DNA of 64,000 nucleotides. Origin: Escherichia coli O157:H7. GTDB taxonomy: Bacteria > Pseudomonadota > Gammaproteobacteria > Enterobacterales > Enterobacteriaceae. The stretch is from assembly GCF_013167455.1 (NCBI RefSeq), contig NZ_CP038328.1; one strand, 5' to 3'. Position 1 is the first letter of the stretch. Each line of letters starts with the position of its first letter. This document shows, piece after piece, positions 41,101 through 44,100 of this stretch. Position numbers: made by a program.

Positions 41101-44100
41101 GTCCATTGGACGGTTACTGTTCACCCAAAAGATTTGCTGAGTCAGGATGGATTTCAGGTTTTTCGACACACTCATTAACTGCTGCTGGTTGATTTGCAGG
41201 TTAATGGCCATCATCAGCTGGTTACCCAACTGTTTGTTGAGTTGATCCAGCAATTCGCGACGCATATCAACCACTTGCAATAACGCATCGTGAACTTCGC
41301 TGTTGACTTCGTTGGTGTGACCTTCTTCCAGTTTGTTGACGAACGCATCGCTCTGGAAGAGTGCATCACGCTGCTGGTTAACTTCAAACTGTTCGAGACG
41401 CAAATCCGCGATGCGGTTGGTCATGTTTTCCAGTTCATCCGCCGAGGGCAGCGTTTGTTGTTGCTGGTAAAGGATACGAGACAACAGCAGGCTGCCCTTC
41501 AGGACGGCAATCTGCTCTTTAATATTGCGTTCCGATTGCAGCGCCCGCTCCAGCCAGTTTTTGACTTTAATGTTTTGCTGCATCAACTGATTACCGTTTT
41601 CAGTCGCGGTAATCAGACGCTGACTTAACTGCTGGTTAATTTCCAGTTCCTGCTTCACCAGCGGATTAGCCTGAATACGCGCGGCTTCATCCGGGGAGAC
41701 GGCTTCCTGCGCCGTTTTTTCGGTTAAAGTCAGGCGCTTGCTGTTTACCGCTTCTTGCAACAGCTGCAACTGGTGCTCCAGACGGGCGCTGTTCGCCGTC
41801 ACGTAATCACGTTGCTTTTGCAAGGTATCCTGCAAGACGGTATTCCCTTCCAGGCTTTTACGCTGCTGGTCAATCTCCGCATTCAGCAACGCCTGCTGAG
41901 CCTGCATTAACACTTTCTGGCTGGGACGTAAGGCCGTCTCGCCGACATCAGTCCCATCCAGACGACTGCGAATTTGTTGCAGCTGCTGCGAAGCGTTATA
42001 CATCGCATTTTGCACGCGTTCGGGCTGCGTCTGTAACGAAACCAGCTGGCTGTTATAAGACGCCAGATCGTTTTGTGCGTTTTGCAAATCGTCCAGCGCC
42101 TGGGCAACGCGAGTTTCCAGCTGGCGCAACGAAAGCGTGCTCAGAATTTTGCGCGTTTCTTCGTCGTTATCGACATCGCTAAGTGCTGTTAACGCCGCGG
42201 TCGCCTGGCGCATTTTTTCCGGCGCTTCAGCGACTTTTTGCCGTAGCTGAACGGTCTCTTCTTTTACGCGATCGATTTTATCGAGGGTGGCTAATGTATC
42301 TGTCAGATCCTGCTGCACCAGTTTGTCCTGAGCAGAAAGATCTTTTTGTTTATTTAGTGAGTCAAGTTGCGCCTGCAGGTCCGCTTTTGTCGGCAGATCA
42401 CCATTCGATGACGCCCGCGCAAACGCCGTGTTCTGGCATAACAAGACAAAAACAAAAGCAATAAATGCTGAAAAAACAAAATGCCGTGATCGTTTGTAAT
42501 ACTGGAACATAGTCATGATGAATGAAGGTTTCTGAACCTGAAGAACGACCTGAAAAAGTCAAACCGCAAGAATATCACGACGCAGTGAACCAGAATAGCA
42601 ACGACGAAAATGTCCAGGAAAAATCCTGGAGTCAGATTCAGGGTTATTCGTTAGTGGCAGGATTACGAAGCGTGGGGCACAGGAGATACATCTCCAGTAA
42701 GATGGCGACGTAATCGCGGGCTTCTTTTTTAAGATCAAAAGATTGCGGGGCAAAGAGCCAGTTTTCCATCAGGCCGGAAATATAGCCGCGCATAATAATT
42801 GCTGCCCGACGCGTCATTAAATCCGCAGGCAACATTTTCGCTTCAATACAATGTTTTAACGTTTGTTCTATACGGTCATAACTTTCCAAACAGAGATTAC
42901 GTTGTGCCTGTTGCACAACAGCCATTTCTCCGACAAATTCGCATTTGTGGAATATAATCTCCATCAATAATCGACGCCGTTCTTCTGTCACCGTGGATTC
43001 AAGAACATGAATTAATATCTCTCTTAATACTGAGAGTGGATCGCTAGGGAATTTTGCCTGATATTCAAGCTCTAGTTCACCAATATTGGATTCTGATAGT
43101 TCCCAGATCTCACTGAACAAATCCGACTTGTCTTTAAAATGCCAGTAGATTGCACCGCGCGTAACGCCAGCTGCTTTTGCAATCTCACCCAGCGAGGTGG
43201 ATGATACCCCCTGCTGTGAGAAAAGACGTAGAGCCACATCGAGGATGTGTTGGCGCGTTTCTTGCGCTTCTTGTTTGGTTTTTCGTGCCATATGTTCGTG
43301 AATTTACAGGCGTTAGATTTACATACATTTGTGAATGTATGTACCATAGCACGACGATAATATAAACGCAGCAATGGGTTTATTAACTTTTGACCATTGA
43401 CCAATTTGAAATCGGACACTCGAGGTTTACATATGAACAAAAACAGAGGGTTTACGCCTCTGGCGGTCGTTCTGATGCTCTCAGGCAGCTTAGCCCTAAC
43501 AGGATGTGACGACAAACAGGCCCAACAAGGTGGCCAGCAGATGCCCGCCGTTGGCGTAGTAACAGTCAAAACTGAACCTCTGCAGATCACAACCGAGCTT
43601 CCGGGTCGCACCAGTGCCTACCGGATCGCAGAAGTTCGTCCTCAAGTTAGCGGGATTATCCTGAAGCGTAATTTCAAAGAAGGTAGCGACATCGAAGCAG
43701 GTGTCTCTCTCTATCAGATTGATCCTGCGACCTATCAGGCGACATACGACAGTGCGAAAGGTGATCTGGCGAAAGCCCAGGCTGCAGCCAATATCGCGCA
43801 ATTGACGGTGAATCGTTATCAGAAACTGCTCGGTACTCAGTACATCAGTAAGCAAGAGTACGATCAGGCTCTGGCTGATGCGCAACAGGCGAATGCTGCG
43901 GTAACTGCGGCGAAAGCTGCCGTTGAAACTGCGCGGATCAATCTGGCTTACACCAAAGTCACCTCTCCGATTAGCGGTCGCATTGGTAAGTCGAACGTGA
44001 CGGAAGGCGCATTGGTACAGAACGGTCAGGCGACTGCGCTGGCAACCGTGCAGCAACTTGATCCGATCTACGTTGATGTGACCCAGTCCAGCAACGACTT

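What the first reader, a model, noticed from the sequence alone, without database searches (positions are those of the whole stretch)
43320..43343. 24-bp AcrR operator palindrome in the acrR-acrA divergent region
TACATACATTTGTGAATGTATGTA is a near-perfect inverted repeat at the expected position for AcrR autoregulation and acrAB repression. It is a known element.
Basis: established knowledge. Interest (0 to 1): 0.15.

Follow-up and report, generated by a model that had tools for sequence, protein, structure and literature searches.

The report
Known AcrR operator of E. coli acrAB
This 24-base palindrome is the already published binding site through which the E. coli repressor AcrR turns down the AcrAB multidrug efflux pump genes, so the finding is correct but ordinary.

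Summary
Window 43320-43343 reads TACATACATTTGTGAATGTATGTA and occurs once in the window. It has two perfectly complementary 10-nt arms around a 4-nt spacer, TGTG.

It lies in the 141-bp gap between divergent acrR (42644-43291, -) and acrA-acrB (43433-47798, +). That gap is identical to E. coli K-12 MG1655.

[quoted passage not shown] It also reports that purified AcrR shifts an acrAB promoter fragment, that ligands release it, and that deleting acrR induces the promoter.

Sequence evidence places the site between, and overlapping, a -35 (TTTACA) and a -10 (TACCAT) candidate for acrAB. It also lies 29-52 nt upstream of the acrR start codon, downstream of the acrR promoter candidates.

I scanned one genome per species for the arms and retrieved 120 hits. 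In 115 of them the site sits next to a divergent AcrR-like gene (35-99% identical). In all 107 that also hold an AcrA-like gene, that gene lies on the other side. A TAnnnT hexamer, which the search did not select for, starts at the last two bases of the palindrome in 111 of 115 loci.

Verdict: an already known element, correctly identified, of low interest. The binding itself was not tested here and rests on the literature.

The parts
43320..43343 (.). 24-bp AcrR operator, TACATACATT-TGTG-AATGTATGTA (K-12 coordinates 485709-485732)
   Evidence: Exact and unique in the window. Identical to K-12. Quoted verbatim as the AcrR-binding site in PMC9769551 and PMC10597343. K-12 coordinates computed.
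43320..43329 (.). Left 10-nt arm, TACATACATT. Its first four bases, TACA, belong to the -35 candidate of acrAB.
43330..43333 (.). 4-nt spacer, TGTG. It varies between species, but its 4th base is G in 110 of 115 loci and its 1st is C or T in 113 of 115.
43334..43343 (.). Right 10-nt arm, AATGTATGTA. Its last two bases, TA, begin the -10 candidate of acrAB.
43318..43323 (+). Candidate -35 hexamer of the acrAB promoter, TTTACA
   Evidence: Consensus scan. The same hexamer is present in 83 of 94 loci whose AcrR is at least 55% identical. PMC4403819 places the Yersinia AcrR motif over the acrAB -35. The transcription start site was not verified here.
43342..43347 (+). Candidate -10 hexamer of the acrAB promoter, TACCAT, 18-nt spacing from the -35
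   Evidence: Consensus scan. A TAnnnT hexamer sits at this position in 94 of 94 close and 17 of 21 distant loci, and these bases were not part of the search pattern.
43357..43386 (-). Candidate acrR promoter: -35 TTAATA (43386-43381) and -10 TATATT or TATTAT (43364-43357). This would put the operator in the first ~30 nt of the acrR transcript.
   Evidence: Consensus scan only. The -10 region is moderately conserved in Enterobacterales and the -35 is not. This is inferred.
43273..43291 (-). marbox (MarA/SoxS/Rob site), ATGGCACGAAAAACCAAAC, inside the first codons of acrR and upstream of the acrAB -35
   Evidence: Exact match to AYNGCACNNWNNRYYAAAYN; it is the only match in the window, against 0.02 expected. 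PMC11642870 places the marbox in the first 20 nt of the acrR coding region.
42644..43291 (-). acrR, the TetR-family repressor (215 aa) that binds the operator
   Evidence: NCBIfam NF007949 AcrR equivalog, 418.9 bits against a cut-off of 271. E-value 1.2e-140 over residues 1-215 to PDB 2qop, E. coli AcrR. One substitution relative to K-12, S83 for G83.
43433..44626 (+). acrA, the periplasmic adaptor and first gene of the repressed operon
   Evidence: NF011604, 885.2 bits against a cut-off of 765. The protein is identical to K-12 AcrA.
44649..47798 (+). acrB, the RND permease and second gene of the repressed operon
   Evidence: NF011706, 2418.6 bits against a cut-off of 2150.

Best explanation
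The palindrome is the operator of the TetR-family repressor AcrR. AcrR, encoded next door on the minus strand, binds the two 10-bp arms through its N-terminal helix-turn-helix. The literature suggests it does so as two dimers on opposite faces of the DNA. The site fills the spacer of the acrAB promoter and overlaps both its -35 (TTTACA) and -10 (TACCAT) candidates, so bound AcrR would exclude RNA polymerase and lower acrAB transcription. The same site lies 29-52 nt upstream of the acrR start codon, downstream of the acrR promoter candidates, so it would also damp acrR itself. Ligands such as ethidium, putrescine and cadaverine release AcrR from the DNA and de-repress the pump. The marbox 29 nt upstream of the site allows MarA, SoxS or Rob to activate the same promoter. 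What is shown here: the sequence, its position, its identity to K-12, and its conserved context and promoter overlap. What is taken from the literature: the binding, the ligand release and the autoregulation. What is inferred: steric occlusion of polymerase and the roadblock on acrR.
For: The sequence is exact and unique. The flanking genes are acrR and acrAB. The intergenic region is identical to K-12. The 36-mer around the site is found in 5389 of 5426 complete E. coli genomes and is identical in 5382 of them. By contrast, 1617 genomes are only 95-99% identical over acrR plus the gap. The literature quotes this 24-mer as the AcrR site. Purified AcrR shifts a 179-bp acrAB promoter fragment, ethidium and polyamines abolish the shift, and deleting acrR induces acrABp-lacZ. 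The two 10-bp repeats, the 4-bp spacer and the suggested dimer of dimers are described. Autoregulation and the 141-bp divergent arrangement are stated. The promoter overlap comes from the consensus scan. The comparative data are as follows. All 115 loci with an AcrR-like gene within 600 nt have it divergent from the site, and all 107 that also hold an AcrA-like gene have it on the far side, pointing outward. A TAnnnT hexamer is anchored on the last two bases of the palindrome in 111 of 115 loci. In 19 distant homologues the helix-turn-helix residues 31-55 are 74.7% identical to E. coli AcrR, against 27.7% for the ligand domain. This fits a retained DNA-reading head paired with a retained operator.
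Against: No binding experiment can be run here. The primary footprinting paper (Su et al. 2007) and Ma et al. 1996 are not held in the library, so the binding rests on secondary citations and on shift assays done with a whole promoter fragment. The transcription start sites of acrAB and acrR were not verified, so the promoter hexamers are consensus matches backed by conservation. The comparative set was collected by requiring exact arms. The conservation of the arms within that set is therefore circular, and only the context, the spacer and the flanks are independent evidence. The stoichiometry is described as 'suggested' in the source.
Confidence: 0.95

Rival explanations
1. The palindrome acts mainly as an RNA hairpin in the 5' leader of the acrR mRNA, affecting its stability or translation, rather than as a protein-binding DNA site.
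For: If acrR is transcribed from the candidate promoter at 43386-43357, the site is transcribed. The predicted fold contains the 10-bp stem with a 4-nt loop.
Against: The fold of the leader is not unusual: -14.6 kcal/mol, z = -1.72, and 12 of 200 shuffles fold as well. No Rfam family matches. In distant loci the distance from the site to the regulator's start codon varies from 23 to 343 nt, whereas the -10-like hexamer on the pump side stays fixed. The literature shows direct AcrR binding to this promoter. A hairpin could exist as a by-product.
Confidence: 0.03
2. The site is chiefly the target of another regulator, such as the AcrR paralogue EnvR/AcrS or OmpR, and AcrR is secondary.
For: In Yersinia enterocolitica a putative OmpR site overlaps the AcrR motif, and OmpR shifts the acrAB promoter fragment. 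The window's AcrR also scores 179.8 bits against the acrEF/envCD regulator model, so a paralogue with a similar DNA-reading head exists in E. coli. EnvR/AcrS repression of acrAB is my recollection and was not checked here.
Against: Across 115 loci the site travels with an adjacent divergent AcrR-like gene. Deleting acrR alone strongly induces the promoter, and purified AcrR binds it at 0.4 uM, a concentration at which the other promoters tested showed no shift. Extra regulators would add to the AcrR operator role rather than replace it.
Confidence: 0.02
3. It is a chance palindrome, or a generic structural repeat such as a REP element or a terminator, with no specific role.
For: The window holds seven other sites with perfect 10-nt arms, so palindromes as such are not rare here.
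Against: The other sites have stems richer in G+C than this one. The terminator scan reports nothing at 43320-43343. The arms recur in at least 120 species' genomes. About 0.3 exact matches to 20 specified bases are expected in 298 billion bases (my arithmetic, assuming equal base frequencies). The hits fall almost always in the same gene context.
Confidence: 0

Closest known systems
AcrR operator of the E. coli K-12 acrR-acrAB locus (Su, Rutherford and Yu 2007, as cited in PMC9769551 and PMC10597343)
   Same: It is the same 24 bases, in the same 141-bp divergent intergenic region, at the same distance from both start codons.
   Different: The element itself does not differ. The host allele differs from K-12 at 9 bases in acrR/acrA and by AcrR S83 for G83, matching O157:H7 strains.
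Putative AcrR motif of Yersinia enterocolitica acrR-acrAB (PMC4403819)
   Same: The motif lies at -52 to -29 from the acrR start codon, exactly as in the window, and overlaps the acrAB -35. Yersinia species are among the exact-arm hits.
   Different: The spacer is CGTG or CGCA in the three Yersinia loci retrieved (L007, L041, L042; Y. enterocolitica itself was not among them) rather than TGTG. An overlapping OmpR site is proposed there and was not examined in E. coli.
Operators of related efflux repressors of the TetR family (TtgR of Pseudomonas putida, MtrR of Neisseria gonorrhoeae, QacR of Staphylococcus aureus)
   Same: TtgR and MtrR are the nearest solved relatives of this AcrR after AcrR itself, with E-values of 1.8e-44 and 1.7e-31. 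The suggested binding of a long palindrome by two dimers is the QacR-like mode (and my own knowledge).
   Different: These are different proteins, loci and operator sequences. From memory the TtgR operator resembles this one in its right arm, but I did not test that. No AcrR-DNA complex appeared under the AcrR entries, where only the protein is named.

Membership tests
E. coli AcrR operator (acrAB/acrR) | Sequence equals the published 24-bp site 5'-TACATACATTTGTGAATGTATGTA-3' | tested here: met
   Exact match at 43320-43343. The string is quoted in PMC9769551, PMC10597343 and PMC10482752.
E. coli AcrR operator (acrAB/acrR) | Two 10-bp inverted repeats separated by 4 bp | tested here: met
   The arms are 100% complementary with a 4-nt gap. 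The same description appears in PMC10597343.
E. coli AcrR operator (acrAB/acrR) | Lies in the 141-bp region between divergent acrR and acrAB | tested here: met
   ORFs and NCBIfam equivalogs. K-12 annotation and alignment. The 141-bp figure is stated in PMC9769551.
E. coli AcrR operator (acrAB/acrR) | An intact cognate repressor gene is present | tested here: met
   A 215-aa ORF scoring 418.9 bits against a cut-off of 271. It matches PDB 2qop full length. It carries one substitution relative to K-12, and the allele is shared with O157:H7 strains.
E. coli AcrR operator (acrAB/acrR) | Overlaps the core promoter of acrAB | tested here: met
   A -35 TTTACA at 43318-43323 and a -10 TACCAT at 43342-43347 bracket the site. 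The TAnnnT hexamer is conserved in 111 of 115 loci. This is met on sequence criteria only, because the transcription start was not verified.
E. coli AcrR operator (acrAB/acrR) | Physically bound by AcrR and released by ligands | not testable with these tools
   Literature only: shift assays with a 179-bp acrAB promoter fragment, and release by ethidium, putrescine, cadaverine and spermidine. The primary footprint paper is not held.
E. coli AcrR operator (acrAB/acrR) | Mediates repression of acrR itself | not testable with these tools
   Stated in PMC9769551, citing Ma et al. 1996. The geometry is compatible: the site is 29-52 nt upstream of the acrR start codon and downstream of the promoter candidates.
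marbox (MarA/SoxS/Rob site) | Asymmetric 20-bp consensus AYNGCACNNWNNRYYAAAYN | tested here: not met
   The only match in the window is at 43273-43291 (-), not at the palindrome. The marbox is a separate, neighbouring element.
Intrinsic terminator or REP-type palindrome | A G+C-rich stem, followed by a T run in the case of a terminator | tested here: not met
   No terminator-like site is reported at 43320-43343. Each arm holds only 2 G or C bases in 10, and no T run follows.
Structured RNA family | A match to a curated covariance model, or an unusually stable fold | tested here: not met
   No Rfam match at E-value up to 1. The fold z-score is -1.72.

The most novel reading that the evidence does not exclude
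The one mildly novel reading concerns how deeply the module is conserved. The 20 arm bases are letter-for-letter identical next to AcrR-like regulators that are only 35-45% identical to E. coli AcrR. These occur in Aeromonas, in Burkholderiales (Acidovorax, Comamonas, Polaromonas, Ottowia, an Oxalobacteraceae isolate), in Silvimonas, and next to a TetR gene in a Fulvivirga (Bacteroidota) metagenome bin. A likely reason is that the palindrome carries part of the pump promoter's -35 (TACA) and -10 (TA) inside itself, so it is constrained twice. If so, operator, promoter and DNA-reading head would form one frozen cassette that is inherited or transferred as a unit. My data cannot say how general this is, because the hits were selected for exact arms, and it may already be catalogued in regulon databases.
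Probability: 0.3. Interest if true: 0.3.

Novelty: already known. Interest (0 to 1): 0.08.

Why it matters
AcrAB-TolC is the main multidrug efflux pump of E. coli, and this site is the switch through which its local repressor acts. Mutations in acrR or in this region raise drug resistance. For the genome scan, the value of this result is that the call is correct and needs no further attention. The comparative data add one modest point: the operator and the core promoter of the pump are physically the same stretch of DNA, and this arrangement is kept far beyond the Enterobacteriaceae.

Tried and rejected
- **Primary papers.** I tried to read Su et al. 2007, Li et al. 2007, Routh et al. 2009 and the two TetR-family reviews. 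None is held, so the footprint and the stoichiometry are cited second-hand.
- **Transcription start sites.** I looked for a published start site for acrAB or acrR in E. coli and found none in the accessible papers. My recollection that the acrAB start lies near K-12 485698 fits the -10 candidate, but it is not evidence.
- **RNA element.** Rejected: there is no Rfam hit and the fold is not significant.
- **Marbox.** I considered whether ATAGCACGACGATAATATAAAC, just downstream of the site, is the marbox. It does not fit the consensus; the true marbox is at 43273-43291.
- **Second AcrR-like site in the window.** None was found with up to 3 mismatches.
- **Exact-arm hits outside an efflux context.** L013 lies inside a glycosyltransferase-like ORF (my reading of the translation). 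L080 is a 30-bp perfect palindrome in Clostridium neonatale. L052 has no TetR gene nearby. I treat these as unrelated or chance.

Full report
**Observation.** The window reads TACATACATTTGTGAATGTATGTA at 43320-43343. It is the only match in the 64 kb even with three mismatches allowed, and none of 100 shuffles produced a match. The repeat finder reports arms 43320-43329 and 43334-43343, 10 nt each and 100% complementary, with 4 nt between them. Only the spacer TGTG breaks the symmetry. Perfect inverted repeats with 10-nt arms occur at 8 distinct sites in the window, against a mean of 0.5 hits in shuffles. The other seven have stems richer in G+C than this one; I did not examine them.

**Surroundings.**
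- To the left, on the minus strand, is a 215-aa ORF (42644-43291). It passes the NCBIfam AcrR equivalog model (418.9 bits, cut-off 271) and matches the solved E. coli AcrR structure 2qop over its full length.
- To the right, on the plus strand, are acrA (43433-44626) and acrB (44649-47798). Beyond acrR lies mscK.
- The gap between the two start codons is 141 bp.
- The K-12 MG1655 record has the same gene order.
- Window 43270-43450 is identical to K-12 at every compared column.
- The window is not K-12 itself. The acrR-acrA stretch differs at 9 bases and AcrR carries S83 instead of G83, and this allele is identical to O157:H7 strains.

**Conservation within the species.**
- A 36-mer centred on the palindrome is found in 5389 of 5426 complete E. 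coli genomes and is identical in 5382 of them.
- The 789 bases covering acrR plus the gap are only 95-99% identical in 1617 genomes.
- The operator and core-promoter stretch is therefore kept more strictly than the neighbouring coding sequence.
- One caveat applies. The search needs an exact 28-base word, so variants with a central mismatch would be counted among the 37 genomes without a match.

**What the literature says.**
- The exact 24-mer appears in three held papers. [quoted passage not shown]
- PMC10597343 describes two 10-bp inverted repeats joined by a 4-bp spacer. [quoted passage not shown]
- PMC9769551 reports several experiments. Purified AcrR shifts a 179-bp acrAB promoter fragment. 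Ethidium, putrescine, cadaverine and spermidine prevent the shift. An acrR deletion strongly induces acrABp-lacZ.
- The same paper says that AcrR regulates its own expression and that acrR lies 141 bp upstream of acrAB, divergently transcribed.
- The primary footprinting paper and Ma et al. 1996 are not held.

**Position relative to promoters.**
- On the plus strand the consensus scan finds a -35 TTTACA at 43318-43323 and a -10 TACCAT at 43342-43347, with an 18-nt spacing. The palindrome fills that spacer and contributes TACA to the -35 and TA to the -10.
- On the minus strand it finds a -35 TTAATA (43386-43381) and -10 candidates at 43364-43357. These would place the operator in the early transcribed region of acrR, 29-52 nt upstream of its start codon.
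- A study of Yersinia enterocolitica puts a putative AcrR motif at -52 to -29 from the acrR start codon, overlapping the acrAB -35 (PMC4403819). The geometry is the same.
- The marbox for MarA, SoxS and Rob matches its consensus exactly at 43273-43291 on the minus strand. It is the only match in the window and lies inside the first codons of acrR, as PMC11642870 describes.

**Comparative evidence.** I scanned one genome per species for TACATACATT-N4-AATGTATGTA. By my arithmetic about 0.3 matches are expected by chance in 298 billion bases.
- In 115 loci an AcrR-like gene (35-99% identical) starts within 600 nt, and it is always divergent from the site.
- In all 107 of those that also hold an AcrA-like gene, that gene lies on the other side and points outward.
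- The hosts include many Enterobacterales, Aeromonas, several Burkholderiales and Silvimonas.
- Because the arms were the search key, their conservation in this set is circular. The independent evidence lies in bases the pattern did not specify.
- A TAnnnT hexamer starts at the last two bases of the palindrome in 94 of 94 close and 17 of 21 distant loci.
- TTTACA is present in 83 of 94 close loci.
- The fourth spacer base is G in 110 of 115 loci.
- The distance from the acrR start codon to the site is 27-29 nt in 90 of 93 close loci.
- In the distant group the flanks otherwise carry almost no conservation.
- In 19 distant homologues, AcrR residues 31-55 (the helix-turn-helix) are 74.7% identical to the E. 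coli protein, against 27.7% for residues 56-215. This fits a retained reading head paired with a retained operator.

**Mechanism.** AcrR most likely binds the two arms and blocks RNA polymerase at the acrAB core promoter. From the same position it would hinder transcription of acrR. Ligand binding in the C-terminal domain releases it.
- Shown here: the sequence, its position, and its conserved context and promoter overlap.
- Taken from the literature: the binding and its release by ligands.
- Inferred: steric exclusion of polymerase and the roadblock on acrR.

**Rivals.**
- An RNA hairpin in the acrR leader is possible as a by-product, but the fold is not unusual (z = -1.72) and no RNA family matches.
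- Other regulators may share the site, such as OmpR in Yersinia. The site nevertheless travels with AcrR-like genes.
- A chance or generic palindrome is excluded.

**Verdict.** The element is already known and well characterised, so interest is low. The only mildly new point is the depth of the exact conservation and its likely cause, namely that the operator and the core promoter share the same bases. That point would need an unbiased survey before it could be claimed.

Noticed in passing
window 43273-43291 (-): An exact match to the marbox consensus, ATGGCACGAAAAACCAAAC, lies inside the first codons of acrR. It is the only such match in the window. PMC11642870 notes that full acrR deletions remove it, which changes the phenotype of an 'acrR knockout'.
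   Followed up: partly
window 43344-43383: Just downstream of the operator is a block strongly conserved across Enterobacterales (consensus cCATAgCAcGac.ataatataaaCgCAGcAaTGGGTTt). It includes an imperfect inverted repeat, ATAAACGCA / TGGGTTTAT (43362-43370 / 43375-43383). It covers the acrA -10 and start region and the acrR -10 candidates, but the conservation extends beyond these and may mark another site.
   Followed up: no
L122 (NZ_CP148461.1, E. coli strain Z1323CEC0008, chicken); insertion point about window 43313: A gene annotated as an IS481-family transposase, presumably on an inserted element, sits between acrR and the operator. This would separate acrR from its promoter candidates and the marbox from the acrAB promoter, while the operator stays next to acrA. 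The effect on efflux expression is unknown.
   Followed up: partly
window 42644-43291 (-), AcrR residue 83: AcrR has S83 where K-12 has G83. The acrR allele is identical to O157:H7 strains, so the window probably comes from that lineage.
   Followed up: partly
L079 896-919 (Fulvivirga sp. metagenome bin, Bacteroidota): The same arms, with spacer TGTT, lie 8 nt upstream of a TetR-family ORF that is 38% identical to the AcrR N-terminus. This is a different phylum. It could reflect horizontal transfer or contamination of the bin.
   Followed up: no
L071 8992-9015 (Parendozoicomonas sp.): The identical 24-mer, with the same TGTG spacer, lies in front of an ORF that looks like a periplasmic adaptor by eye; it gave no tblastn match to AcrA. 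No AcrR-like gene lies beside it; the upstream ORF is an unrelated 592-aa protein.
   Followed up: no
L080 154-183 (Clostridium neonatale); L013 2314-2337 (Thomasclavelia cocleata); L052 410-433 (Pseudidiomarina sediminum): These exact-arm matches lie outside any efflux context. L080 is a 30-bp perfect palindrome after a gene end, L013 is inside a glycosyltransferase-like ORF (my reading of the translation), and L052 is intergenic with no TetR gene nearby. They are probably unrelated.
   Followed up: partly
window 43412-43416: TCGGA lies in the acrA leader and matches the secondary CsrA site described for the Salmonella acrAB leader (PMC5727465). It was not examined in E. coli.
   Followed up: no
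window 22730-22753 and 32194-32223: There are perfect palindromes built on GCCGGATG...CATCCGGC, which look REP-like from memory. Other G+C-rich perfect palindromes lie at 11979, 25858, 34183, 39119 and 41587.
   Followed up: no
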